A DNA stretch of 43,389 nt. Origin: a virus. Taxonomy: Duplodnaviria; Heunggongvirae; Uroviricota; Caudoviricetes. The position numbers and the translations under genes were made by a program. Shown here piece after piece: positions 2,642-37,187 of this stretch. Every line of letters begins with the position of its first letter. The first letter of the stretch is position 1. The stretch covers positions 1-43,389 of the IMG/VR virus record IMGVR_UViG_2778261064_000026; one strand, given 5' to 3'. The notes under the pieces are model-generated. The model did no database searches. It was not told the DNA's origin and saw only the letters and a program-made list of their open reading frames with translations.

Positions 2642-3817
2642 TTAGGCAGCGTCTAAGAGAGTATTAAAGTATTCATCCATTAAATCAGGACTGTCGTCAT
2701 CAATACAGAAAAATTCCGGTTTATTGATGCCGTAGAAGTGAGTATGTAGCTTGAATGTATCGTCATCAAATACATCTTTCTGGGATACCCACATATTAGC
2801 CTCGTCCGGTTGATTGGTTAGGTAGTCATAAACCAGTTGCTGTAAGTGTGGTAACTCATCAATAGTCAGAGTTTCCGACCATCCATCCTTGAAATCTTTG
2901 TAGGGTGCTGCATGAGTCTTGAAGCGTTGTTTTACTTCATGCTCTAAATCAACGGCTTTCCAACCATCCTCAAACTCATGAGTAAAGATTAAGCGGTGAG
3001 TGAAGTTGCTCTTTCTGGTTTGCTCTCTCATTCGTTCTTCTGGTTTCCGGGTAGTGATTCCAAATTTAATAAATTTGTCATCTAATAATTGAATATAGAA
3101 ACTAGCCTTACCCTGATAAGTCCGGTTAGACAGTTGCACCAGTTGGTCTTTAATGCAAAGCGGACAAGTGAAAGAATCAGCACATCTTAAATGAGATTCC
3201 CATTCGTGATTATGTGTCTTGCAATAGGTTTTAAATTTAACATCCTTTAGGTGTGGGGTGTTTATGATGAATCCTTTGAAGGTGTAAGGCGTACTCTCGC
3301 AACGTGCATTGATGATTGTCTCTTTGTCCTTAATAACTTCATCAAAAGTCTTGCCACTTCTTACCCGTTGGGATTTTTCAGCCATACAGATTTTGCAATC
3401 AAAATCGAAATCATCTTTGAGAGCATGTAATAGAGATGGCGTCATGATTTGATTGTGTTCAGGGCACAAAACACGGGATTTTGTCTTGTTGCGCCCTTTC
3501 CATTCTCCTTGCCATCCGAGGAATTTCTTTCCCTTCTCATTACAACGAGATTCCATTTTCAACCATACAGCCTTTTCAGTCTGGAGTAACTCACCCCCGT
3601 TAGTATCTTCCAGTTTGCGTAATTTGTAGTCCTTATATTCTTGTGTATCTAAATTGTAGATTCGAAAGTAAGTGTGATTACCCTTCCACGGTAGGATAAA
3701 TCCACCAAATACGAAAGCAGGTTCCAGTTTAGCGATGATTCGTTGTTGGTACTCTTCCGGCGATAAACCGCGAGTTTTCTTAACAAAAGGAATTTCGGCA
3801 GCGTAAGCAAGTTTCAT
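2642..3817 (-). CDS. T5orf172 (GIY-YIG-like) domain protein with several Cys-pair zinc-finger-like motifs, about 391 aa from internal ATG
   Basis: FIKFGITTRKPEERMREQ motif; multiple CxxC/CxxH pairs; start moved to MKLAYAAE because of RBS gaggaaact; track ORF extends to 3928. Confidence 0.5.
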   Translation of the reverse strand: MKLAYAAEIPFVKKTRGLSPEEYQQRIIAKLEPAFVFGGFILPWKGNHTYFRIYNLDTQEYKDYKLRKLEDTNGGELLQTEKAVWLKMESRCNEKGKKFLGWQGEWKGRNKTKSRVLCPEHNQIMTPSLLHALKDDFDFDCKICMAEKSQRVRSGKTFDEVIKDKETIINARCESTPYTFKGFIINTPHLKDVKFKTYCKTHNHEWESHLRCADSFTCPLCIKDQLVQLSNRTYQGKASFYIQLLDDKFIKFGITTRKPEERMREQTRKSNFTHRLIFTHEFEDGWKAVDLEHEVKQRFKTHAAPYKDFKDGWSETLTIDELPHLQQLVYDYLTNQPDEANMWVSQKDVFDDDTFKLHTHFYGINKPEFFCIDDDSPDLMDEYFNTLLDAA

Positions 3818-3876
3818 AGTAGTTTCCTCTAAAATAATAAGCTCACTACTATTTATTAGAGAAAATTGTCTTACTA

Positions 3877-3904
3877 TTGCATTCTCTATCTGGATGTGTA
3901 CAAT
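3877..3904 (+). promoter_or_regulatory. sigma70-like promoter (TTGCAT, 16-nt spacer, TACAAT) for the 3971 gene
   Basis: hexamers read directly from sequence. Confidence 0.3.
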
Positions 3905-3970
3905 ACGCGACCCTAAATCCCAAACCAACCATATTGAGGTTATGCCTATAAGTTAAAAAGTGAGGTCTAT

Positions 3971-4540
3971 ATGATTCCAGTAATGGCTAAAGATATTGTT
4001 TTTACTCCTAAATCCTCCCGTGCTGCAACTCCATCGGCATTAGAACAACGCATTCTGACTCACATCAAAGAGAAGGACTTACCGTTAGTCTTTCATGGCT
4101 TTCTGGGTGAGTTTAAAGGGCTTCATTCAAGAATTGCTCTTACATGTACCCGATGCGGCAATAGAGCCGACAAATCAGCTACCAACCTGCTTAATGAAGG
4201 TAAACGCTGTGCATGTCTCAAAAGTGATTACTTTCAATATAAAGCGGGTGTGCCTTATCTCTATGTAATGAAATCAGGGGATATTGGTAAATTTGGTGTA
4301 ACAAAGTCAATCATCAAGCGACGTGTTAATCTGGGTGTACGCAATCCCGGTCATAACTTTGATATTGTCTTTGCTGGTGAAATGCCATCAATGAAACATG
4401 CTTTAGCCACTGAAAGAGCAATAAAGAGATTACTGGATGTGGGTATAGGCGGGATTGAATACGGCAAAACTGAAACATTCCACTACTGCAATAAATCACT
4501 AAACAATATAAAGAATATTGCAAGTGTGGAGTGGAACTAA
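3971..4540 (+). CDS. T5orf172/GIY-YIG-like domain protein, 189 aa, N-terminal Cys cluster
   Basis: YLYVMKSGDIGKFGVTKS motif; RBS gtgagg; stop overlaps helicase start (TAATG). Confidence 0.4.
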   Translation: MIPVMAKDIVFTPKSSRAATPSALEQRILTHIKEKDLPLVFHGFLGEFKGLHSRIALTCTRCGNRADKSATNLLNEGKRCACLKSDYFQYKAGVPYLYVMKSGDIGKFGVTKSIIKRRVNLGVRNPGHNFDIVFAGEMPSMKHALATERAIKRLLDVGIGGIEYGKTETFHYCNKSLNNIKNIASVEWN

Positions 4541-6030
4541 TGCAAGATATTAAAATTCATTTTCAAGATTACAGTTTCGTTAAGGTTGATTGCTCTCCTT
4601 CTATCGGAATGGAATTAAGAGATTATTTCTCGTTTGAGGTTGAAGGGGCTAGGTTTAGCCCCCGCTACAAGTATTCCGGCTGGGATGGACGAATAAGACT
4701 GTTTACGCATGAAAATATCCTACCAATTGGACTATTAAAAACGTTGGGTGTCTTCGTTAAAAATATGGGCTATTCAGTCTGGATTGACCCGCGATTGCTT
4801 GAGAAGGAAGATGTAACCAAAGACGCGATTAATGAATGGATTGATTCCCTAGAAGTGTATTCCGGTTCCAATAAAATCAATCCTTACTGGTATCAAAGGG
4901 AGGCAGTCTTTCAGGGTATCCATAATCGCCGTAGAATGCTGGTTCTTCCTACCAGTGCCGGAAAGTCATTGATTGCTTGTATGCTGTCTCGTTGGTACTT
5001 AGAGAACTACACCGGAAAGATTCTAATCATTGTCCCGACTACATCGCTGGTGGTTCAAATGAGGGATGATTTTGTTGATTATCGGTTATTCCCTTATGAA
5101 GCAATCCATACAATGATGAGTGGTAGCGGGAAACATCCGGGAGACAGGTTAATCACGGTTAGTACCTGGCAATCAGCTTGCAAGATGCCTCCTGAATGGT
5201 TCAAACAATATGGAATGTTGATAGTTGATGAATCGCATAAGGCTAGTGCCAAAAATATTACCAATATCATTAACGGAATGAATCATTGCCAGTTTAAGAT
5301 CGGTATGACTGGTTCCCCGAAAGAATCAAAGTGCCATTTAATGCAATACGTCGGTATGTTCGGTGATATTTCTAAGATCGTGAGTATTGACCGCCTGATG
5401 GAAGAAGGGCAGGTGACAAAACTGAAAATTAACTGTCTTTTCCTTCGTTATACCGATGAGGAATGTAGCGCGGTTAAGGGGCGAGAATATGCGGAAGAGA
5501 TCAAGTACATCACTTCGCACGGGAGACGAAATAAGTTTGTGTGTAATTTGGCGCTAAAACTCGCTAAGAAGAACGAAAACGTATTTCTGATGTTCCGTAA
5601 CACTAAACACGGAAAACTTATGTATGACGCGTTACAGAAGGTACATGATAAGGTTTATTACATTGATGGTGGAGTTAAGACAGAAGAACGTGATGAATTT
5701 AAGAAAATGGCGGAGGGTGACACCGGGATCATTTGTGTTGCGTCTTATGGTGTGTTCTCTACTGGTGTTTCAATTAAGAACTTGCACCATGTCATTTTCG
5801 GTCATCCGGTGAAAGAATCAACTATCGTTCGTCAGAGTATTGGCCGTGCATTGCGTAAACATGGTTCTAAGGATATTGCGACCGTCTGGGATCTTATCGA
5901 TCATCTGTGTATATTCGGTCGTAACGGAAAAGTCAAGCATAAAAATTATGCGGTAAAACATGCACTTGAGAGAATCCGCTATTATCTAACCGACAAGTTC
6001 AGCTATGCAACTAAAACAATTGCTATATAA
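4540..6030 (+). CDS. SF2 DNA helicase, UvsW-like (recombination/repair helicase), 496 aa from ATG 4540
   Basis: Walker A LPTSAGKS, DExH box IVDESHKAS, motif VI QSIGRALRKHG; N-terminal domain and motif order resemble my recollection of T4 UvsW. Confidence 0.7.
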   Translation: MQDIKIHFQDYSFVKVDCSPSIGMELRDYFSFEVEGARFSPRYKYSGWDGRIRLFTHENILPIGLLKTLGVFVKNMGYSVWIDPRLLEKEDVTKDAINEWIDSLEVYSGSNKINPYWYQREAVFQGIHNRRRMLVLPTSAGKSLIACMLSRWYLENYTGKILIIVPTTSLVVQMRDDFVDYRLFPYEAIHTMMSGSGKHPGDRLITVSTWQSACKMPPEWFKQYGMLIVDESHKASAKNITNIINGMNHCQFKIGMTGSPKESKCHLMQYVGMFGDISKIVSIDRLMEEGQVTKLKINCLFLRYTDEECSAVKGREYAEEIKYITSHGRRNKFVCNLALKLAKKNENVFLMFRNTKHGKLMYDALQKVHDKVYYIDGGVKTEERDEFKKMAEGDTGIICVASYGVFSTGVSIKNLHHVIFGHPVKESTIVRQSIGRALRKHGSKDIATVWDLIDHLCIFGRNGKVKHKNYAVKHALERIRYYLTDKFSYATKTIAI

Positions 6031-27440: not shown

Positions 27441-29345
27441 TTAGAACGATGTTACCCAGCTACGGCCTCTATTTGGACGTCTGGCGATGTTTTGACGTTG
27501 TGGTCGTGTGATTGGCTTAGTTTCTTCGATTTGCTCGTCAGATTGCGTTTCAGGAGCTTTTACGGGTTCTTCTGGTTCACGGTTCAAACTATCTTTGATG
27601 GCTTCGAGTTTTTCCCATGACATTTTATTGAGTACATGGCGAGAAGCAGCATAGGAATAAGCCAGGCAGTCGAGAGCCTCGTTTCGTTGCTGACCAACTT
27701 TTACCCAACGTGTGGTGTTACCCTGCCGTTTCAACTGTTCAGAAAGCAATTGCTCGCAATAGTCATCAGGAACGTCGCCAATCTGGAAGACAGTGTGAGG
27801 ATCGCCATCTCTCAAATTCCGGTTAATCATTTCACGGATCATCGTTTTAAGGTTGTTTACGCCCAGAATTTTAAGGGTAAAACCACCCGTTCTTGTGTCT
27901 TTTACCGGAAGGATTGGTGCATCAACATTGCTTGCGCCTTTAATGGCGGTTAGATTTTGCCACCGACTACAGAATCGATAGATCACTTGCGTAGCTCGTC
28001 CGTTCGATGAGTCCACGAAAGCAGATAACATCGGGATTCGTTCACCGGATCGGGTATAGAATTTCGCTTTCAGGAAGTTGTAAAGCTGGTCATATGCTGG
28101 TGATTCGTGGCGTTCGCAGTTCACATCATAGAATGATCGGTGATCAACTACGCATAGCCCTTTACGAGAAATACCCAGCAAGGTAGATTCCAGACGGTCT
28201 TTTTGCTGGTCAACTCCACCAACCAGAGCCAGTACATCATCAGGAATATTGTCTAGGCTAATATCAGTTTTCAGCGTTTCTAATTCGTCGGCTGTGCGGT
28301 CTTCGTTAAGATCATCGAAGGTTTCACCGAGGACTGTATTGTAGAACGTTGCCAGGGACATATTCGCGTAGCTATCAGCAAAGTCCACCACACACGCACG
28401 GATAGAACTAAACGGAGACATAAGGCGGTTAGCATGAAAACCGATTACTTCCGCGTTTGGTTCGGTGGCGACCCATTCTCCCTTAGCAACAGCACGTAGG
28501 CGATCCCCTTCGGTCCAATCGGTTTCACATTCAGGGCAACGGTAAACGGCTGTATCTGGGTTGGGTAATGATTTACCGTTAATCGTATGCCAATCGAAAT
28601 GTACGTTACTCCATTCCATTACGTGCTTGTGTCCGCAATGCTGGCAAACGACATGATATTTTCTCTTATCCGAGAGTTCCCATTGTTGGTTAATCGCCCC
28701 ATCACGAGCGGTTGGAGTGGAAGCAATTACGATCCTTGCATCTTCCCCGAAAGTGGTTGCGCGTTGTTCCGCTAGCTGGATCGGGTTCCCTTCGTCTGAT
28801 TCATCAGCCGCATCAACTTCATCAAGAATAATCAAAGGGAGTGTCTTACCGCGCAAGTGTGATGGACTGTTCAGCGACATGAAATACATGAATGATCCAT
28901 TACGAAGCTGAATAATCGATGAGTTGTTAACAGCATTACGGTCTGATTTGTCGGTGATCATCGCTTTTAATTCTGGCGTTGCCTCTAATACTGGCTTCAC
29001 CTTACCAGCGATCCAAGAATTTAGTTCCCTAACGTTACTTTGCAACACCCCAATATTCGTAGGGTTACTCGCGATCCGATGGAAGATAATTCCGTTAAGA
29101 ATCATGGTCTTACCCAACTGCGCCGAACATTTAAACACAATTTTTCTACGGTCTTCGGTGATCGCGTCCATCATTCCACGTTGGAAGGGATGCAATTTAA
29201 TTAGCGATCCGGCTTTAACACCATCGGTTGCAACTACATTAGCCTCTACCCATTCGCTAGGTTTCATCGTTTTAGGTGGGCGAATTGCCGCAGAGATATT
29301 TTTAAGAATCTTTTTTAATTTGGCCTTATTAGAAATCAGTTTCAT
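27441..29345 (-). CDS. terminase large subunit, lambda gpA family, 634 aa from MKLISNK
   Basis: Walker A KCSAQLGKT; CQHCGH zinc motif; NTVLGETF and RNEALDCLAYSYAA segments matching gpA-family landmarks; RBS gaggg before ATG 29345; track ORF extends to 29420. Confidence 0.85.
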   Translation of the reverse strand: MKLISNKAKLKKILKNISAAIRPPKTMKPSEWVEANVVATDGVKAGSLIKLHPFQRGMMDAITEDRRKIVFKCSAQLGKTMILNGIIFHRIASNPTNIGVLQSNVRELNSWIAGKVKPVLEATPELKAMITDKSDRNAVNNSSIIQLRNGSFMYFMSLNSPSHLRGKTLPLIILDEVDAADESDEGNPIQLAEQRATTFGEDARIVIASTPTARDGAINQQWELSDKRKYHVVCQHCGHKHVMEWSNVHFDWHTINGKSLPNPDTAVYRCPECETDWTEGDRLRAVAKGEWVATEPNAEVIGFHANRLMSPFSSIRACVVDFADSYANMSLATFYNTVLGETFDDLNEDRTADELETLKTDISLDNIPDDVLALVGGVDQQKDRLESTLLGISRKGLCVVDHRSFYDVNCERHESPAYDQLYNFLKAKFYTRSGERIPMLSAFVDSSNGRATQVIYRFCSRWQNLTAIKGASNVDAPILPVKDTRTGGFTLKILGVNNLKTMIREMINRNLRDGDPHTVFQIGDVPDDYCEQLLSEQLKRQGNTTRWVKVGQQRNEALDCLAYSYAASRHVLNKMSWEKLEAIKDSLNREPEEPVKAPETQSDEQIEETKPITRPQRQNIARRPNRGRSWVTSF

Positions 29346-29430
29346 GTAATTACCCTCATTACGAAATATGAAGGTATTTATTAAATTGTTGATTTTTTGA
29401 TAAATACGGGTATTAATCAAAGGGGGTTGT

Positions 29431-30036
29431 ATGCTAATTAATCAGCAACAAAGAGATGTATTAGAATTAGCCTTTTCTTGTTGTACCGATCATGAATATC
29501 GTTTGCCAGTTAAGCACCATCACAAGAAGACTGATTACACAACATCTGGATTTAGTCGTGAGGAAGCGAAAGAGATTTTAATAGAATTTTACCGCGATAA
29601 TGGTTATACAGACGTTCACAACTTCTTTAAGAAGCATAGAACATCACATACAGAGTTCCAGAGAGTCCGAGATTGGTTTGATTTTGATATCAAGCGTTAT
29701 TATCGAGTGGATGACGGTCCGATCTATCGGTTGCAGTGGAAGCCGATCCGAGAAGTGTTGAAACAGAAGAGATTGAATCACGCAATTACACGCTATCGTA
29801 ACGAGGCTTTCAAGAAAGGCTATGGTGATACAAGGGAACTATTCGTTGAACTCGCTAACGTGCGTTATAGCCACTATTACAACGATCCTAAAGGGTTCTT
29901 TGAAGTGCTTCGCAAGGTTGATATAAGTCGGGGTACATACTATTCACGGTTGAAGAAGTACGGGATTAAGGCAGAGTTCTTTATGAGTATTGACGATGGA
30001 GAACTTTTTCCGATAAAATGTAAGTCCTCTAAATAA
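29431..30036 (+). CDS. hypothetical protein, 201 aa, with C-terminal HTH module paralogous to the small HTH proteins
   Basis: C-terminal RELFVELANVRY...GTYYSRLKKYGIK aligns with the 60-aa and 77-aa proteins; RBS aaaggggg. Confidence 0.4.
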   Translation: MLINQQQRDVLELAFSCCTDHEYRLPVKHHHKKTDYTTSGFSREEAKEILIEFYRDNGYTDVHNFFKKHRTSHTEFQRVRDWFDFDIKRYYRVDDGPIYRLQWKPIREVLKQKRLNHAITRYRNEAFKKGYGDTRELFVELANVRYSHYYNDPKGFFEVLRKVDISRGTYYSRLKKYGIKAEFFMSIDDGELFPIKCKSSK

Positions 30037-30064
30037 AGGTGAACATTCACTTTAATTTGGAGAA

Positions 30065-30298
30065 ATGACTATGACTACTAAAGCTACTCGCGGTCGTCCT
30101 TGCCGTTTTACCCGTGAACAGATGGCTGATATTGCCTATGCTTACTATACAGCGGATCGTGGTAAGGAAGCGAAAGAACAGATTCTTAGTGAACATGGGA
30201 TCTCAATCGCCCAATTCTATAAGAATATGAAGAAGTTAGACATTAAATTCTATGTTCAGATCGGTGATGGTCAGATCGTAGAAGCAACAGGTTTTTGA
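30065..30298 (+). CDS. small HTH DNA-binding protein, 77 aa (FTRE...KKLDIK family)
   Basis: RGRPCRFTREQMADIAYAYY...GISIAQFYKNMKKLDIK, transposase-OrfA/resolvase-like HTH pattern. Confidence 0.45.
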   Translation: MTMTTKATRGRPCRFTREQMADIAYAYYTADRGKEAKEQILSEHGISIAQFYKNMKKLDIKFYVQIGDGQIVEATGF

Positions 30299-30313
30299 GT
30301 TTTGATTCTCTTT

Positions 30314-30338
30314 GCCACTCTTCGGAGTGGCTTTTTTG
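30314..30338 (+). terminator. rho-independent terminator
   Basis: gccactc-ttcg-gagtggc followed by tttttt. Confidence 0.7.
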
Positions 30339-30381
30339 TATGTAAAACAATCTGAGCAAAATTGGTTAGATCACCAGATAC

Positions 30382-30410
30382 AAAAAGCCCAGCGCAATTA
30401 TGCGCCGGGC
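30382..30410 (-). terminator. terminator after Rha-family gene
   Basis: 9-bp stem with one mismatch plus U-run on minus strand. Confidence 0.5.
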
Positions 30411-30416
30411 GATTAA

Positions 30417-31241
30417 TCACAGTCCGAAGACTTCCAGTGATCCAACATTCTGGCGTAGACGTTCAGCCGCTTTATTTTGAATCAGAATAGTGTTGTTCGG
30501 CTTAGGAAGATTCAGAGTTGCTTTTTGTTCTTCTTCCAGAACACCCAATTCAACCAGCACCGGAAGCACATCAACAGTAAACTCAAGCTGGTAGTGAGCA
30601 TTCATGCGGCAGAAAGACAGAGAAGAGTCATTAGCAACATACCCACACGGCTTGTTATTTTCATCGTAGACGCGCTCAATGTAGCCAGCAGTACGCAAGG
30701 CCGTTAGTGCTTCTTTAACCTTCGTAGCGCCCTTTTTAGCGCCTAACAGACGGGTCATTGAATGGCTATCTACTGATTTGCGAACATGAAGTTCAATCAG
30801 CTTTTTATTTTCGCGAGTTTTCTTTAATGCCAGTTCGATCCAGTCTGTTTCTTCAAAGTCTGCATACGGGTTAACGGCTAAACGTTCCTGACGCAGTTTT
30901 TCATTTTCTTCTTTCAGTCGCTTCCATTCCTGAATAACAACCATTCGACGCTTAACATCGTAACCAGTGACAAGAGTCAGCGTCATTTCTTCGTCTAAGT
31001 GATATACTGGTTCTTTAACAGCATATCCTAAGTTATTGATTCTCTCGACAAATTCAGTTTTGAGCTGATCGATAATACCTAAAGATTCGTACATTTCGCG
31101 AATATCGCGCATTACATTGCTGTGCTTCTTATCGGTAAATTCAGCGATCTGACGGGAAGACATGGTCAGCGGTTTGGTGTTATCGACAACCAGAGACACG
31201 GAAGCAGTTTTAGCAGTATTCATAACGGTAACAGTATTCAT
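30417..31241 (-). CDS. Rha-family phage regulatory protein (antirepressor-like), 274 aa
   Basis: N-terminal LTMSSRQIAEFTDKKHSNVMRDIREM typical of Rha domain. Confidence 0.7.
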   Translation of the reverse strand: MNTVTVMNTAKTASVSLVVDNTKPLTMSSRQIAEFTDKKHSNVMRDIREMYESLGIIDQLKTEFVERINNLGYAVKEPVYHLDEEMTLTLVTGYDVKRRMVVIQEWKRLKEENEKLRQERLAVNPYADFEETDWIELALKKTRENKKLIELHVRKSVDSHSMTRLLGAKKGATKVKEALTALRTAGYIERVYDENNKPCGYVANDSSLSFCRMNAHYQLEFTVDVLPVLVELGVLEEEQKATLNLPKPNNTILIQNKAAERLRQNVGSLEVFGL

Positions 31242-31330
31242 AGTAAAAATTCCCCTTAAACGGTTTAATGATTTGGTCCTCCTAGTTCCGGCATCACCAC
31301 CGGAACAATTTTATTTATAATAGAAATTTA

Positions 31331-31663
31331 TTACCAATCGATTTCTACCTGATCTTCTTCGTAGTAAGGAATCGCATATTCATAACGCCAGTTTTCGATG
31401 ATTTCACGTTCTTCATTAGTAAGAAGGTGATTGCTAACTGGAGTCGCATTGTGATTACCAGCTTCGAATTGTTCGCGAACTTCCAGCATTGCATGAATAC
31501 CAGTTAAGGACATCAGATCAAACGGAACATGCATACTACGGGAGATTGTTTCACGGGATACGCCCCAATCATTTTCTACATGGCTAGGGCTTACAGAAAC
31601 GGTTTTGCCGGAGATTTTAACAGTCCAGTCATACAGGGATTTAGTGATGGTAAATTCTTTCAT
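31331..31663 (-). CDS. hypothetical protein, 110 aa
   Basis: ORF track; co-oriented upstream of Rha-family gene. Confidence 0.4.
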   Translation of the reverse strand: MKEFTITKSLYDWTVKISGKTVSVSPSHVENDWGVSRETISRSMHVPFDLMSLTGIHAMLEVREQFEAGNHNATPVSNHLLTNEEREIIENWRYEYAIPYYEEDQVEIDW

Positions 31664-31675
31664 GTTACATCCTCT

Positions 31676-31780
31676 TTACAAATCTAGGTCAAATAGGTTC
31701 AAAATTGTCAAGTGCGATAATCATAAAAAAGTCAGAAAATTTTGTCAATACCCCTTGACAAGACGCCAAAGGGTTGACCT
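31676..31780 (-). promoter_or_regulatory. promoter with overlapping operator-like inverted repeats
   Basis: minus-strand TTGACA, 17-nt spacer, TATGAT; inverted repeat TTGTCAA-N6-TTGACAA at about 31742-31761; outer pair AGGTCAA/TTGACCT. Confidence 0.4.
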
Positions 31781-31783
31781 AAA

Positions 31784-32236
31784 TTACAGCATATCTAAGC
31801 CTTCATCGTAACCGTAGAAGCCACCGTGAGAAGAGAAACAGATTGGTGTGTAGTCGTCGTCATCTTCGTCTTGTTCATCGTGTTCTGGGGCTTCCTGAGC
31901 GGGTTGTTTACCATAATCAGCCATAATCTGGTCAAGATCGGCGATCCCATAGTAAGAGCCTAAATCAACGTCATATTCACGAACATCAAACGGCAGGTCA
32001 TCACGAACAATAATTGCCGGAATGTTGTTGTATTGTTCACGACCTTCATCAGTAAAGCAGTCTACGATCACCGTAGGGCGACCATTACGTTTAAGAGCAT
32101 AGAAAGCAGTTGAGAAATTGGAGTCTTCGGAATGACGAATGATGTTATAACCACGATTAGCGAAAACATGCATCATAGCCAGATTATCATCATGGTTCAG
32201 ACCCAGAAGAATGAAAGGAGTTTTAGTATTGATCAT
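31784..32236 (-). CDS. hypothetical protein, 150 aa, with acidic C-terminal tail
   Basis: ORF track; RBS agagga; EHDEQDEDDDDY tail. Confidence 0.4.
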   Translation of the reverse strand: MINTKTPFILLGLNHDDNLAMMHVFANRGYNIIRHSEDSNFSTAFYALKRNGRPTVIVDCFTDEGREQYNNIPAIIVRDDLPFDVREYDVDLGSYYGIADLDQIMADYGKQPAQEAPEHDEQDEDDDDYTPICFSSHGGFYGYDEGLDML

Positions 32237-32497
32237 AGTGGAAATCCTCTAAAAGAAAGTGAATCAAACAAAGTACACTATTATTTATAACGAGAAATTT
32301 TTGTCTAATTTGAAAGGAATTGGTATTCAGTCGGCTTCGCCTCCTTCATAGATTTTGATTAAATCATCATCAAAACGAAGAAGTATCTTTAGAATATAAG
32401 AATCTTTCTTTTGGAGAAATTATAATCAGGAAGCAATTTAGCAACCGAAGGTTGCAATCCCGAAGGGATAACCAATACCTTTCATGATCATTAAAGT

Positions 32498-32720
32498 GAT
32501 CTAGAATCATCTAGTAACCAGTTAACTACTATTATCTTCAAAGTGATTATTACTATCTTTCTAGAATCAGTTAGTAACTAGTTTAAAAATCCCTTTCAAG
32601 AAAATCCTTTCAGAAGTGATTCTCGATGCCACGCAGTGGCGTCGCAGACGTTTGAGAGTGAGCGAAGCGAGCGAGCAAACTAGTTAATTCCTTCTAAGAC
32701 CATCTAGTATCATCTAGTTT
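32498..32720. repeat. cluster of CTAG-rich palindromic repeats
   Basis: ctagaatcatctagtaaccagttaact, ctagaatcagttagtaactagtt, catctagtatcatctagtt; palindromes AGTTAACT, AACTAGTT, TTCTAGAA. Confidence 0.4.
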
Positions 32721-32865
32721 AAATTAGTGTTACTAGAAGTAATTGGTTAGCGCTTCGCGCAGTCGGGCTACGCCCTCCTAATATCTTTTTGGTTATTTGT
32801 TGTTTTTGGTTTTACACATGAGCGTAGCGAATGTGTTATATAATATCTATGCACGCCCGATTCCC

Positions 32866-33110
32866 CGTTTTTGCCCCTCGCTAAGTTAATGTTTTATAAA
32901 GAGTTTTTCTCACCAATCCTTTTCGGGGGCAAATTTCAGGGGCAAAAATTAGATTTTCAGGGGCAATTATTGGCATTTCAGGGGCAAAAATGAGGGGCAA
33001 AATCACCGTTTCCCAGAATTTCAGGGGCAAAAATAGTAGGTTTCAGGGGCAAAAATGGGATAGTGAAATCTAGGGGATTTTGGTTCAGGGGCAAAATTCA
33101 GGGGCAATTT
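32866..33110. repeat. iteron array: nine direct copies of (T)TCAGGGGCAA(AAAT) plus one inverted copy
   Basis: GGGGCAA cores at about 32926, 32939, 32960, 32981, 32995, 33024, 33046, 33088, 33101; inverted at 32871; spacings mostly 13-14, 21-22, 42 bp. Confidence 0.65.
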
Positions 33111-33148
33111 TCATAGTGTAGTGCTAGTGTAGGTTTGAAAGTCCTTTC

Positions 33149-33177
33149 TTGACACTATGTAGGTTTGGTGCTATACT
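33149..33177 (+). promoter_or_regulatory. near-consensus sigma70 promoter P1 (TTGACA, 17 nt, TATACT)
   Basis: read directly from sequence. Confidence 0.6.
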
Positions 33178-33206
33178 TGACAATTTGAGAAAAAATGTGG
33201 TATAAT
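33177..33206 (+). promoter_or_regulatory. consensus sigma70 promoter P2 (TTGACA, 18 nt, TATAAT), overlapping P1
   Basis: read directly from sequence. Confidence 0.6.
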
Positions 33207-33626
33207 ATTTGTATTGAAAGTGAAAATTTACCGATTTTCCTTCCTATTGTTATCACCGTGTTAAATTGTTATATGTTTGTGAAGATTTGGATCTGAGAGA
33301 AAATCTTGTAACAAATCTTTACAATTCATAGCTCAATTAATGCTCACCGCTTTAGCAAAAAGTGCTATGCATTTTTCTAAATTGATTGAATAAACATCAA
33401 TTTGGTTAATTCGTGTTCTTCTCTTTAGCAATTCGTGCTGCGGTTTAACACATTTAACACGTCTGATAACATCTGAATAACATTTTAACATATCTCTGTT
33501 ATAAATACATATATAAGAGATAAATGTGAGGGGTTGAAAAATAAAATACAATCCCCATATAAATAATAGTGAGCGGTTAACGCTCTTTTTTAAGAAATCA
33601 TTAATCCAGATTTAGGAGGATTTAAG

Positions 33627-33809
33627 ATGGCACGACCTGTTAAGTTCACTCGTGAAATCGTTTTAGAAATGGCAAAGCGTTATTTTGAACTGACACCTGA
33701 TGTAGTGATGGGTGAATGGTTTAAAGGTGAAGGTATTGATCAATCAACCTTCCACAAACTCTTAAAGAAGTATGACATTAAAGTAAAGATTACCGCAGAG
33801 GTGTGGTAA
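33627..33809 (+). CDS. small HTH DNA-binding protein, 60 aa (FTRE...KKYDIK family)
   Basis: MARPVKFTREIVLEMAKRYF...GIDQSTFHKLLKKYDIK; RBS aggagga. Confidence 0.5.
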   Translation: MARPVKFTREIVLEMAKRYFELTPDVVMGEWFKGEGIDQSTFHKLLKKYDIKVKITAEVW

Positions 33810-33922
33810 TAACCTTTCACTGAGAATTATATGATGGCTTTAAAAAAGAAAAAGCCTCCCTTGTTGCAGCAAAGGAGGCTTGAAATGAACAATTAAAACT
33901 AACTTTCCACGGAGTATTTATA

Positions 33923-34864
33923 ATGTTATTTTCCGCTAACTTTTTCACTAACGAAGTAACCAACGCTAAAGCAGTTATCAAATTTGGCACCGAAGCAAAC
34001 AAGAAGATTCAGCCGAAAGTTGTTGCTCATGTTTCCTTTGCGCAGCAGAAATCCGCTTTCGCTGGCTTTAAAGCACATCGTGAAGCACTGATCGCGGCTG
34101 GCTTTGGTGTTGACGGTAAACTGCCTAACGGCATTCGTAAAGCAATCGACCGCGTTAAACCTGCTAAAGACGTTGCAGTAGACCGCATCGTTACTTTTAC
34201 CGTTAAGAACTCTTCTGAACTGTTCCACCTGGTTATTGCTGGTGATACTGCTATCGTTTCCGCTCCTAACATGGATTTTCAGGATACCGCTGATTGCCAG
34301 ATCACCTTCGGTCGTCGTAAAGAAGTTACCGGAAAAGCTAAACTGAACTTCACTAAATCCGGCAATCCTTACTTTGCTGTTTTCTTTAACAGCCACGCTA
34401 CCGAAAAAGAAGTTGTAGAACTGGTTGCTTATGAAGGTGAAGAGAAAGAACGTATTGAATCTTGCGAAGCATTTCTGGAACTGGAAGCACAGGTGAATGC
34501 TGTTTCTCCGGTTGTTGAAGATCGCTTTGCTGCACTGGAAGCACAGATCGCAGAACTGAAAGCTGCACTGGAAGAAAAAGACCAGATTATCGAAGCACAG
34601 AAAGCTGAGATTGAAGAACTGAAAGCTAAAGAAGTTGCTCCGGTAGCAGTAGTTGAAAACGCGGCTGATGAGGCCGCAAATGATGAAGTAGAAGTGAAAA
34701 TCGATGTGATGCGTGATCCGATGGCTGCACTGCAATTACTTCGTTCTTTTAAGGGCAAATCTCATTTTTCTAGTGATGTAGAAGATGAGGAAGAAGAACA
34801 GAAACGCAATGCTGCAATGCTTCATGATGAAATGTACGGTACTAACTTTTCTTACTGCCAATAA
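33923..34864 (+). CDS. hypothetical protein, 313 aa, with central coiled coil and acidic patches; likely highly expressed
   Basis: host-optimal codons (ctg, cgt, ggt, aac, ttc); first large ORF downstream of tandem consensus promoters. Confidence 0.5.
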   Translation: MLFSANFFTNEVTNAKAVIKFGTEANKKIQPKVVAHVSFAQQKSAFAGFKAHREALIAAGFGVDGKLPNGIRKAIDRVKPAKDVAVDRIVTFTVKNSSELFHLVIAGDTAIVSAPNMDFQDTADCQITFGRRKEVTGKAKLNFTKSGNPYFAVFFNSHATEKEVVELVAYEGEEKERIESCEAFLELEAQVNAVSPVVEDRFAALEAQIAELKAALEEKDQIIEAQKAEIEELKAKEVAPVAVVENAADEAANDEVEVKIDVMRDPMAALQLLRSFKGKSHFSSDVEDEEEEQKRNAAMLHDEMYGTNFSYCQ

Positions 34865-34867
34865 AAA

Positions 34868-34886
34868 AGGGACTCCGAAGAGTCCC
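34868..34886 (-). terminator. terminator-like hairpin
   Basis: gggactc-cgaa-gagtccc preceded by A6 on plus strand (U-run on minus). Confidence 0.4.
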
Positions 34887-34970
34887 TAGTAAGTTTAGGT
34901 TAGGTTTTGCACAACAAAGATGAGGTTATAATGAACATAATGCTACATTATTCTTTAAAGCCAGAAAAAT

Positions 34971-34990
34971 AACCGCCCCCGAAGGGGCGG
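34971..34990 (-). terminator. terminator-like hairpin
   Basis: ccgcccc-cgaa-ggggcgg preceded by aaaaataa on plus strand. Confidence 0.4.
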
Positions 34991-35148
34991 GAGGATTAAT
35001 ACTCAATCTATACTTGTTATGTTTTTATGTTGTATAGTCACTGACTATGAAAACACTGTACTGAATGTGTTTTATGGCTTTTAATCGGGAACTCTCTTTC
35101 GAAAATTCCCTGTTAAAACCACATAAGGAGAAATGGCAGATTACAATA

Positions 35149-35433
35149 TTATTTAGTCTGTTTGAAAACAAACGTTAAAAATTCGATTAAGCAATATACC
35201 CAGCATACAGTAAGCAGTAGATGCATAGAAATAGCCGGATGGAAGTTAAAAAGTGTCATACTAACTAGGCCAACAATATAAGAAATTCCTTCGACAATTA
35301 ACGCAAGACTAGCAAATGCAACAAACGCACCTAAGAATAATTCAGCACGTTCTCTATTTTCGGTTCCGAGTTTATAAGCAGAAATAACAGCCAGAATAGT
35401 AATGATGACAGCATAGGTAATAAAAGTAGCCAT
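35149..35433 (-). CDS. small integral membrane protein, 94 aa, about 3 TM helices
   Basis: three hydrophobic segments; RBS aagagga. Confidence 0.45.
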   Translation of the reverse strand: MATFITYAVIITILAVISAYKLGTENRERAELFLGAFVAFASLALIVEGISYIVGLVSMTLFNFHPAISMHLLLTVCWVYCLIEFLTFVFKQTK

Positions 35434-35527
35434 AGTTTTATATCCTCTTAAAAGTTAAGCGGGGGATGTTCTCCCCCGTAGACGTTGACCAGCTCAACAT
35501 CTTTCATACATTTATTTATAACGCGTT

Positions 35528-36094
35528 TTAAGACACATCAAATTCATCGTCTTCTTCTGGTTCTTGTTCCGGTTCATCCATTAATGGTAATTCTTCTTCC
35601 TCGTCTTCACCAAAATCTGCATTTTCGAACAAGTCCCCTACTTCATTTAAACGACGCTCGATGATCTCCCTTAGCTTATTCTTCAATGTTTTCTGATCAG
35701 TGGCAGATTCGAGAATTTCTAAAGCGTCGATTGTGGCGATCTGCAAAATAGTCTGCTTCACTTTTCCGCAATATTCCGCTAGTTGCTGTTCTACATACCC
35801 GACAGGAATCAGGAGATTCATTGCTTCCTGGTTCTCTCGTTCGGCTGCGTCCGCTAATGCTCTCTCGCGGCGTAACTTCTCTACGTCGATTTGTTCTTTG
35901 ACAGTAGTTTCCCTGAGTGGACTGATGATATTTTTTGCTATCCATTCGGTCCCTTCCTTGAGCGGTACGCGTCGTGTATTGGTGTTAAATGGCATTCCTC
36001 GTTCTTGCCATTTCTTAGCGGCGTTAATTGTATAGCCGTATAAGCGGGAAATTTCTGTAAGGGTTAATTCTTCTTTCATCCGGTTATCCTCCAT
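35528..36094 (-). CDS. Nu1-like DNA-binding protein (candidate terminase small subunit), 188 aa
   Basis: N-terminal LTLTEISRLYGYTINAAKKWQERGMPF resembles lambda Nu1 winged-HTH (TIQNWQEQGMP) as I recall it; very acidic C-terminus. Confidence 0.4.
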   Translation of the reverse strand: MEDNRMKEELTLTEISRLYGYTINAAKKWQERGMPFNTNTRRVPLKEGTEWIAKNIISPLRETTVKEQIDVEKLRRERALADAAERENQEAMNLLIPVGYVEQQLAEYCGKVKQTILQIATIDALEILESATDQKTLKNKLREIIERRLNEVGDLFENADFGEDEEEELPLMDEPEQEPEEDDEFDVS

Positions 36095-36378
36095 TAAATT
36101 TGCGTAAAATTATTTATCTGATCTGCGCATTCAGGAGAGCGCCTAAAACGCTTTATAACGAAGGGAAAGATCGAGGCGAGGAAAGGGATTGGCTGGTGTT
36201 AATAGTCGCGTAGCGACCGCGCTGGTGGGCTGCACTGCACCTGTTTTGAAATCTCACACGCACATCAAAAACCGGGGTGCCGAAAACTCGCTTTATTTCA
36301 CCCGTGGAACAGTACCTATCAATTTTGTCAAGTCTTTTTTATAAATAATCGAAAATATTTTTCACGCGAGGGCAAATC

Positions 36379-36684
36379 ATGAAGACTAAAGATATTAAGA
36401 TTGACTTTGAAACTGTTGATGACGTTCGGGAACATCGCATTGATTCTACTGGCTGCATCTTCCAGCTTACTAACTCCCCTATTGGATTGATTATCTATGT
36501 AGCAGAAGATGACGTGTACGCTATGTGGGATGGACAGGATGAGTTTAAAGGCGGGAATAGCCATCTGATCAATACTCATGAGGGATTCGATCCGACTCCT
36601 GTCTGTATGCTTGCTTATCACGTAACACTGGATGAACTACCGGAAGCAAGCGCGCGTATCCGTAAAATGAAAGATATTAAGTGA
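36379..36684 (+). CDS. hypothetical protein, 101 aa, last gene before the chromosome junction
   Basis: ORF track; terminator downstream. Confidence 0.4.
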   Translation: MKTKDIKIDFETVDDVREHRIDSTGCIFQLTNSPIGLIIYVAEDDVYAMWDGQDEFKGGNSHLINTHEGFDPTPVCMLAYHVTLDELPEASARIRKMKDIK

Positions 36685-36702
36685 TGTAAGTAATTGATTC
36701 CT

Positions 36703-36732
36703 AAGCCCTGTCCTTGTGATGGGGCTTTTTTA
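36703..36732 (+). terminator. rho-independent terminator
   Basis: agccc...ggggct hairpin plus tttttt. Confidence 0.5.
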
Positions 36733-36746
36733 TTGGAAATCGGGTG

Positions 36747-37187
<441 letters not shown>

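What the first reader, a model, noticed from the sequence alone, without database searches (positions are those of the whole stretch)
29431..33809. Three paralogous FTRE...KKYDIK small HTH modules dispersed through the accessory block
The 60-aa ORF (33627), the 77-aa ORF (30065) and the C-terminal 50 aa of the 201-aa ORF (29431) share a pattern: FTRE, spacer, A..Y, spacer, G(I/V)(S/D)..(T/Q)(F/Y)(Y/H)K..KK(Y/L)(D/G)IK. This resembles the HTH of transposase OrfA/resolvase-type DNA binders. Three diverged copies in 4 kb suggest a family of sequence-specific regulators, which could be the proteins that bind the GGGGCAA iterons or the CTAG palindromes, or could act as recombination directionality factors for the serine recombinase.
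Basis: seen in the sequence. Interest (0 to 1): 0.6.

Follow-up and report, generated by a model that had tools for sequence, protein, structure and literature searches.

The report
Unannotated phage helix-turn-helix protein family
Three small genes of an E. coli prophage encode four copies of a previously unnamed DNA-binding (helix-turn-helix) module that most likely regulates the phage's early genes; one gene always travels with a repeat-flanked, replication-origin-like cassette that also occurs in T4-like phages.

Summary
ORFs A (29431-30036), B (30071-30298) and C (33627-33809) are conserved genes under purifying selection. They lie in a prophage integrated in ycdX, found in 58 of 5426 complete E. 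coli genomes. They share one module, and A carries two copies, so there are four modules. Family profiles match at E = 3e-11 to 8.5e-6. AlphaFold gives three helices plus a beta-hairpin for B and for both halves of A. No Pfam, PHROG, NCBIfam or PADLOC model matches. A profile-profile link (E = 1.2e-10) ties the module to tandem repeats that Pfam calls HTH_23, HTH_28 and HTH_7.

Its functional guesses mostly do not. Four iteron types track four N-terminal domain types of the 313-aa protein downstream of C. They do not track A, B or C. C with its partner also occurs in T4-like phage contigs where no integrase gene was seen. B is absent from some relatives integrated in ycdX. A separate small terminase exists.

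Best reading: these are sequence-specific DNA-binding regulators of the phage early region. C is probably the regulator of an "iterons, promoter, hairpin, C, initiator-like protein" cassette. Binding sites and regulatory roles are inferred, not shown.

The parts
29431..30036 (+). ORF A, 201 aa: low-confidence N-terminal region (1-35), then two tandem copies of the module
   Evidence: Homologues are 50-92% identical in E. coli, Salmonella and Proteus. RefSeq annotates it as hypothetical.
29551..29739 (+). A module 1 (residues ~41-103): predicted H43-57, H62-68, H73-83, strands 87-93 and 98-100
   Evidence: AlphaFold2 model, pLDDT ~87-92 over this stretch. hhalign to the B family 4.8e-8.
29827..30018 (+). 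A module 2 (residues ~133-196): predicted H135-145, H153-163, H167-176, strands 181-187 and 193-194
   Evidence: hhalign to the B family 4.7e-8 and to module 1 8.5e-6.
30071..30298 (+). ORF B, 75 aa (77 aa if started at 30065): N-terminal RGRP arm, three helices, beta-hairpin
   Evidence: G10, R11, P12 and R14 are invariant in the family.
30314..30331 (+). Terminator-like hairpin plus T-run that ends the A-B unit
29347..29430 (.). 82-bp divergent intergenic region between the large terminase start and A. The terminase-proximal part is conserved in relatives.
33627..33809 (+). ORF C, 60 aa: one module with a shortened wing. It always lies immediately upstream of a p313-like gene.
33149..33206 (+). 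Two overlapping near-consensus sigma-70 promoter matches (12/12 and 11/12) pointing towards C
   Evidence: Consensus match only; activity was not tested.
33571..33591 (+). Hairpin plus T-run ~35 nt before the C start codon. A hairpin is kept at this place in all relatives, with a different sequence in Edwardsiella.
   Evidence: A similar promoter-hairpin arrangement precedes C-like genes in L010, L016 and L017.
32921..33110 (+). Iteron array (9 direct copies of GGGGCAA, plus one inverted copy at 32863-32878). This is context, not the target of A, B or C according to covariation.
33923..34864 (+). 313-aa partner of C: N-terminal domain whose type matches the iteron type, then a coiled coil and an acidic tail

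Best explanation
A, B and C are paralogous phage genes that encode an unannotated family of small sequence-specific DNA-binding modules. Each module is a three-helix (homeodomain-like, transposase/resolvase-type) helix-turn-helix followed by a beta-hairpin wing. B also has an N-terminal RGRP arm of the kind that contacts the minor groove in Hin-type domains. A is a tandem duplication, so it would be a two-headed binder of a bipartite site, as in CENP-B or Tc3. B and C are single heads that would need to pair up to read repeats. They belong to the phage early region. In the Edwardsiella relative they lie in one operon: iterons, A', B', leader, C, p377. In E. coli and Salmonella the A-B pair has moved and sits divergent from the large terminase gene. 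C is the first gene of a portable cassette made of structured DNA, iterons, strong promoters, a 5' hairpin, C and an iteron-matched protein. C most likely acts there as a transcriptional (auto)regulator of the partner operon, in the way Cro or Cop proteins sit upstream of initiator genes. It would bind a conserved site rather than the iterons. A and B are most likely extra regulators of the early/late programme. Shown here: paralogy, the gene status of all three ORFs, the predicted fold, gene order, and covariation of iterons with the partner protein. Inferred: DNA binding itself, the regulatory roles and every binding site.
For: Paralogy. Real genes: conserved in 58 of 5426 E. coli genomes plus Salmonella, Proteus and Edwardsiella, and pN is far below pS. 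Fold: three helices plus a hairpin, mean pLDDT 79 (B) and 75 (A). Link to bona fide helix-turn-helix domains: profile search of 1.84 billion proteins, Pfam on those hits, hhalign E=1.2e-10. Gene order: C plus partner in 9 prophage loci and in T4-like contigs. A'-B'-C are contiguous in Edwardsiella. Consensus promoters and a conserved hairpin lie upstream of C. The third (putative recognition) helix of C is conserved across relatives with different iterons, which suggests a conserved target.
Confidence: 0.55

Rival explanations
1. C, or A or B, is part of the origin machinery: it binds the iterons or is an obligatory DNA-binding partner of the initiator-like 313-aa protein.
For: C is always adjacent to the iteron-matched protein, even in T4-like contigs. 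Iterons lie about 500 bp upstream of C.
Against: Iteron type does not co-vary with A, B or C. C of the Edwardsiella type-III cassette is about 75% identical to the window's C. C of a relative with the same iterons (L004) is only 57% identical.
Confidence: 0.15
2. One paralogue is the recombination directionality factor of the large serine recombinase (889-2568).
For: Known directionality factors of serine integrases are small and diverse (general knowledge, not tested here). No other candidate was identified in the window.
Against: The C-like gene and its partner occur in T4-like phage contigs among T4 core genes, with no integrase in the stretches read. B is absent from L006 and L007, which are also inserted in ycdX. 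A and B are relocated and A is split in Edwardsiella.
Confidence: 0.07
3. A is a packaging-specificity or small-terminase-like protein, because it abuts the large terminase gene.
For: A starts 82 bp from the gpA-type large terminase gene. Many small terminases have an N-terminal helix-turn-helix (general knowledge).
Against: A is on the opposite strand. A separate small terminase exists at 35528-36094 (phrog_57, 6e-17; weak Nu1/DUF1441 hits in the Edwardsiella orthologue). A matches no terminase family. In Edwardsiella the terminase gene has no A next to it.
Confidence: 0.05
4. The ORFs are remnants of insertion-sequence OrfA genes, or chance ORFs with no function.
For: One UniRef entry names a C homologue 'Transposase'. 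The fold is of the OrfA type.
Against: There is no adjacent transposase catalytic ORF and no insertion sequence at this place. All three are under strong purifying selection and keep a conserved position.
Confidence: 0.03

Closest known systems
Homeodomain-like helix-turn-helix domains of transposases and resolvases (Pfam HTH_23, HTH_28, HTH_Tnp_1, HTH_7; e.g. IS3 OrfA, the Hin/Tn3 resolvase C-terminal domain)
   Same: Three-helix topology. The motif G-I-S-x-x-T-[FY]-Y-x-x-L-K-K-Y spans the turn and third helix. B has an N-terminal RGRP arm like the GRPR arm of Hin (from memory). Profile link E=1.2e-10.
   Different: No direct Pfam match, even at E<1. The proteins stand alone, with no catalytic domain or insertion sequence. 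They carry an extra C-terminal beta-hairpin.
Bipartite two-HTH DNA-binding domains (CENP-B 1hlv, Tc3 transposase 1u78/1tc3, Myb R2R3)
Small regulators encoded just upstream of initiator genes (lambda cro-cII-O-P; CopR/CopG of plasmids). Functional analogy from general knowledge.
   Same: A small DNA-binding protein is the first gene after strong promoters. It is followed by a protein whose N-terminal domain matches the iterons.
   Different: No homology to Cro/CI (HTH_3) or ribbon-helix-helix proteins. Neither repression nor replication was tested.
T4 oriE iteron region and PeSL promoter/stem-loop cassettes of RB49-type phages (PMC3016281, PMC2839356)
   Same: Iterons sit in a region transcribed against the late genes. 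A strong sigma-70 promoter plus a stem-loop lies directly upstream of an orphan gene. The C-like cassette is inserted between T4-like genes 3 and 2.
   Different: T4 RepEA and RepEB are unrelated to C. It was not shown that the window's promoter-hairpin is a PeSL.

Membership tests
Pfam HTH_23 / HTH_28 / HTH_Tnp_1 / HTH_7 (transposase/resolvase HTH) | Match to the family HMM at or above the gathering score | tested here: not met
   none of these families is listed for A, B or C, even at E up to 1.
Pfam HTH_23 / HTH_28 / HTH_Tnp_1 / HTH_7 (transposase/resolvase HTH) | Three-helix helix-turn-helix fold | tested here: met
Pfam HTH_23 / HTH_28 / HTH_Tnp_1 / HTH_7 (transposase/resolvase HTH) | Detectable homology to accepted members | tested here: met
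   hhalign of the pooled module against tandem repeat units: probability 97%, E=1.2e-10. Of those units, 17/27 hit HTH_23, 12/27 HTH_28 and 6/27 HTH_7. The parent proteins score up to 120 bits.
Insertion-sequence OrfA | Encoded next to or fused with a transposase catalytic ORF inside an element with terminal repeats | tested here: not met
   Neighbours are the terminase, a Rha-family gene and orphan phage genes.
Recombination directionality factor of a large serine integrase | Co-inherited with the integrase and attachment-site specificity | tested here: not met
   The C-like gene lies in T4-like contigs among T4 core genes, with no integrase in the stretches read. B is absent from ycdX-integrated L006 and L007. 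A was not resolved.
Recombination directionality factor of a large serine integrase | Binds the integrase and switches it to attL x attR recombination | not testable with these tools
   Needs a recombination assay or a complex prediction.
Iteron-binding replication initiator | Protein specificity co-varies with iteron sequence | tested here: not met
   four iteron types follow four N-terminal domain types of the p313-like protein, not A, B or C.
Terminase small subunit | Similarity to a small-terminase family and position upstream of, and co-oriented with, the large subunit | tested here: not met
   No terminase family hit for A, B or C in the window. A is on the opposite strand. Another gene matches phrog_57 at 6e-17.
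Excisionase/MerR-type winged helix (HTH_17) | HMM match and two-helix-plus-wing topology | tested here: not met
   No HTH_17 hit. The module has three helices before the wing. Only a weak PHROG excisionase hit (E=0.005) for the Edwardsiella B-like protein.

The most novel reading that the evidence does not exclude
The C-type protein and its variable partner, together with the hairpin-rich DNA, iteron array and promoter-hairpin in front of them, form a self-contained portable cassette. It would be an origin-of-replication module, or another module that targets DNA through repeats, with at least four exchangeable iteron/protein specificities. It would move between temperate enterobacterial prophages and lytic T4-like phages. 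A and B would be paralogues that escaped from this cassette to take over other regulatory jobs.
Probability: 0.3. Interest if true: 0.65.

Novelty: new member of a known kind. Interest (0 to 1): 0.4.

Why it matters
The work names and delimits a protein family that four annotation libraries miss. It shows that the 201-aa protein is a tandem two-headed DNA binder. It also removes these proteins as candidates for iteron recognition and points to the neighbouring 313-aa protein instead. This prophage lineage has no close relative among 50,697 sequenced phage records, and no repressor or replication initiator was identified in the window. These three genes and the cassette around C are therefore the obvious place to start working out how the phage is controlled and replicated. 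The same cassette layout in T4-like phages suggests gene flow between temperate and virulent phages.

Tried and rejected
- Pfam, PHROGs, NCBIfam and PADLOC scans of A, B and C gave no credible hit.
- Profile searches of PDB sequences with the pooled, B and C alignments gave only chance-level hits.
- Foldseek against BFVD gave a best E of 0.15.
- tblastn of A, C, the T4-like C homologue and its 204-aa partner against 50,697 phage records found nothing.
- Rfam found no match on 29200-36800.
- T4 RepEA and RepEB were translated and are unrelated.
- Literature searches for ycdX prophages and for the RefSeq protein accessions found nothing relevant.
- I looked for operators near A. A TTGATA/TTGATT repeat pattern at 29389-29424 is not conserved in the close relative L001, so I dropped it.
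- I considered A as the small terminase and rejected it once phrog_57 matched 35528-36094.
- I considered the hairpin before C as a palindromic operator. I rejected it because Edwardsiella keeps a hairpin with a different sequence, which fits an RNA or terminator structure better.
Full report
**Setting.** The window is a ~36.7-kb prophage followed by host DNA. Its closest complete-genome match (E. coli UTME-12, 97% identity) shows the element inserted in ycdX, next to ghrA and tRNA-Ser.

- A 559-aa large serine recombinase sits at 889-2568.
- Structural genes run on the minus strand, up to a gpA-type large terminase at 27441-29348.
- The small terminase lies at 35528-36094 on the minus strand (phrog_57, 6e-17).
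- The region of the finding lies between the two terminase genes.
- That region occurs in 58 of 5426 complete E. coli genomes.
- A and C have no protein-level match in 50,697 phage records. The best phage match to the large terminase is 44% identical.

**The observation.** ORFs A (29431-30036, 201 aa), B (30065 or 30071 to 30298) and C (33627-33809, 60 aa) are present. BLASTP gives B-C E=5e-8, A(134-183)-C E=5e-4 and A(41-98)-B E=4e-5. The last result shows that A contains a second, N-terminal copy of the module.

- In 5000 shuffles, none reached the observed score for B-C, A2-B, A1-B or A2-C (z = 7-11.5). A1-A2 and A1-C are weak as single sequences.
- I collected homologues of A (39 clusters, down to 50% identity; E. 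coli, Salmonella, Proteus), B (23) and C (19, including Edwardsiella).
- With these families, profile-profile comparison is significant for every pair tested: 3.4e-11, 4.8e-8, 4.7e-8 and 8.5e-6.
- The shared pattern continues beyond 'IK' into [FY][YF]xx[IV][DG][DG]Gxx[IVLF].
- An HMM of the module finds no further copy in the window.
- All three genes have pN far below pS. NCBI's annotation pipeline calls all three in RefSeq genomes.

**Fold.** AlphaFold2 with the pooled alignment predicts, for B, helices at 17-29, 34-43 and 48-57 and strands at 63-66 and 70-73 (mean pLDDT 79). For A it predicts the same set twice: H43-57, H62-68, H73-83, E87-93, E98-100, and then H135-145, H153-163, H167-176, E181-187 (pLDDT 75, pTM 0.67). 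This is a tri-helical helix-turn-helix with a C-terminal hairpin.

- Sequence libraries give nothing direct.
- The exhaustive profile search found only 31 proteins. Besides the three families, these were long proteins with 4-8 tandem ~52-residue repeats.
- Pfam assigns those proteins to HTH_23, HTH_28, HTH_Tnp_1 and HTH_7, with up to 120 bits.
- An alignment of 27 such units matches the pooled module at 97% probability, E=1.2e-10, across all three helices. Of the units, 17/27 individually hit HTH_23.

Strict Pfam membership fails.

**Context in relatives.** In E. coli and Salmonella the order is conserved: terminase(-), A and B(+), Rha, p110 and p150(-), ~1.3 kb non-coding, C and p313-like(+), p94 and small terminase(-).

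- L006 and L007 have A but no B, and are still inserted in ycdX.
- The Edwardsiella tarda relative has no A or B next to the terminase.
- In that relative, an A-like gene (split into 121 + 117 aa) and a B-like gene (71 aa) lie between the iterons and C, on the same strand.
- This suggests an ancestral early operon A-B-C-partner.
- C is always immediately upstream of a p313-like gene.

**Testing the iteron idea.** The relatives provide natural swaps.

| Comparison | A | B | C | p313-like | Iterons |
|---|---|---|---|---|---|
| Window vs L002 | 50% | 91% | 100% | 100% | identical |
| L002 vs L003 | 100% | 100% | 55% | 25% | GGGGCAA vs GTGTAGG |

Across nine loci, four iteron types coincide with four N-terminal domain types of the p313-like protein: GGGGCAA, GTGTAGG, ATGCTAC and TGGAATCCGGGGG. 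The third helix of C is nearly unchanged between loci with different iterons (window vs L006). The p313-like protein, not A, B or C, is therefore the candidate iteron reader.

**A portable cassette.** A C-like protein (P0092, 64 aa) is encoded in a 168-kb T4-like contig, between the counterparts of T4 genes 3 and 2.

- It is preceded by GC-rich hairpins, about ten AGCGATTAC repeats, a sigma-70 promoter and a stem-loop.
- It is followed by a 204-aa protein homologous to the type-II p313 N-terminal domain (BLASTP E=5e-10 to 6e-11) and by an 80-aa coiled-coil protein.
- Two more metagenomic contigs, one carrying T4-type genes, show a C-like gene followed at once by a larger gene (295 aa, and at least 180 aa). 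A promoter-like sequence and a hairpin lie upstream of each C-like gene.
- In the window, two near-consensus promoters (33149-33206) point at C. A hairpin plus T-run lies ~35 nt before its start. Relatives keep a hairpin there even where the sequence differs.
- Strong-promoter-plus-stem-loop cassettes that shuffle orphan genes are described for RB49-type phages (PMC2839356). T4 oriE has iterons in a region of divergent transcription (PMC3016281). T4 RepEA and RepEB are unrelated to C.

The role of C is therefore tied to its partner and the DNA in front of it, and probably not to integration or packaging.

**Mechanism proposed.** These are sequence-specific DNA binders of the phage early region.

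- C is most likely the (auto)regulator of the cassette operon. This is inferred from its position, its conserved third helix and the analogy with Cro- or Cop-type genes.
- A is a two-headed binder and B a single-headed one with an RGRP arm. Both are most likely additional regulators.
- In E. coli, A and B form their own unit, ending at the 30314-30331 terminator, divergent from the terminase gene.
- None of the binding sites could be identified.

Confidence that the module is a DNA-binding helix-turn-helix is about 0.85. Confidence in the regulatory roles is about 0.5.

**Verdict.** The more interesting lead is the iteron/C/partner cassette shared with T4-like phages.

Noticed in passing
window 32300-34900; L003 12878-15472; L005 4365-8449; L008 5501-8485; L010 4894-6625: Four iteron types (GGGGCAA, GTGTAGG, ATGCTAC, TGGAATCCGGGGG) match four N-terminal domain types of the protein encoded after C. 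The same layout, with AGCGATTAC repeats, is inserted between genes 3 and 2 of a T4-like phage contig. It looks like an exchangeable origin/initiator-type cassette.
   Followed up: partly
window 32334-32822: Five of the window's 14 GCGAAGC/GCGTAGC-type mini-hairpin motifs, and 10 of its 61 CTAG sites, fall in the 1.39-kb non-coding stretch. The host part of the window has no CTAG at all.
   Followed up: partly
window 32345-32431; L013 (RB49) 3500-3560 and 3650-3700: An ~80-bp stretch is about 80% identical to an unannotated intergenic repeat of RB49/JSE/Phi1-type T4-like phages, with two copies in RB49. PeSL cassettes are described in these phages, but I did not show that this stretch is one.
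   Followed up: partly
window 35528-36094 (-) and 27441-29348 (-): The small and large terminase genes are ~6 kb apart. They are separated by two plus-strand cassettes (C-p313 and A-B) and by minus-strand terminators. The large terminase therefore needs its own promoter in the conserved 82-bp region, or read-through of those terminators.
   Followed up: partly
window 29347-29400; L005 2430-2470; window 33495-33505; L017 ~4925: A conserved TAAATAC motif lies upstream of the large terminase in E. coli and Edwardsiella relatives. TTATAAATAC lies upstream of C in all relatives and in a T4-like contig. From memory it resembles the T4 late-promoter motif; this is untested.
   Followed up: no
window 33128-33167: Two copies of TGTAGGTTTG sit ~11 nt upstream of each -35 hexamer of the consensus promoters. 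The related GTGTAGG is the iteron of the type-II relatives (L003, L006, L007).
   Followed up: no
window 34780-34864; L003 15400-15472: The p313 family keeps an acidic stretch followed by a conserved C-terminal motif (MLHDEMYGTNFSY / ALHDAIYDTNYSAY), even where the N-terminal domains are unrelated. This could be a docking peptide.
   Followed up: no
window 2642-4540: Two adjacent genes carry CapR-homology domains, one also with a MUG113/T5orf172 nuclease domain, next to a UvsW-like helicase (4531-6030). No repressor or classical replication initiator was recognised anywhere in the prophage.
   Followed up: no
P0084-P0090, P0093 (metagenome proteins): These are long proteins with 4-8 tandem ~52-residue HTH_23/HTH_28 repeats ending in 'LLKKYGI'. 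They are the nearest sequence relatives of the module outside its own families. Their organisms and roles are unknown.
   Followed up: partly
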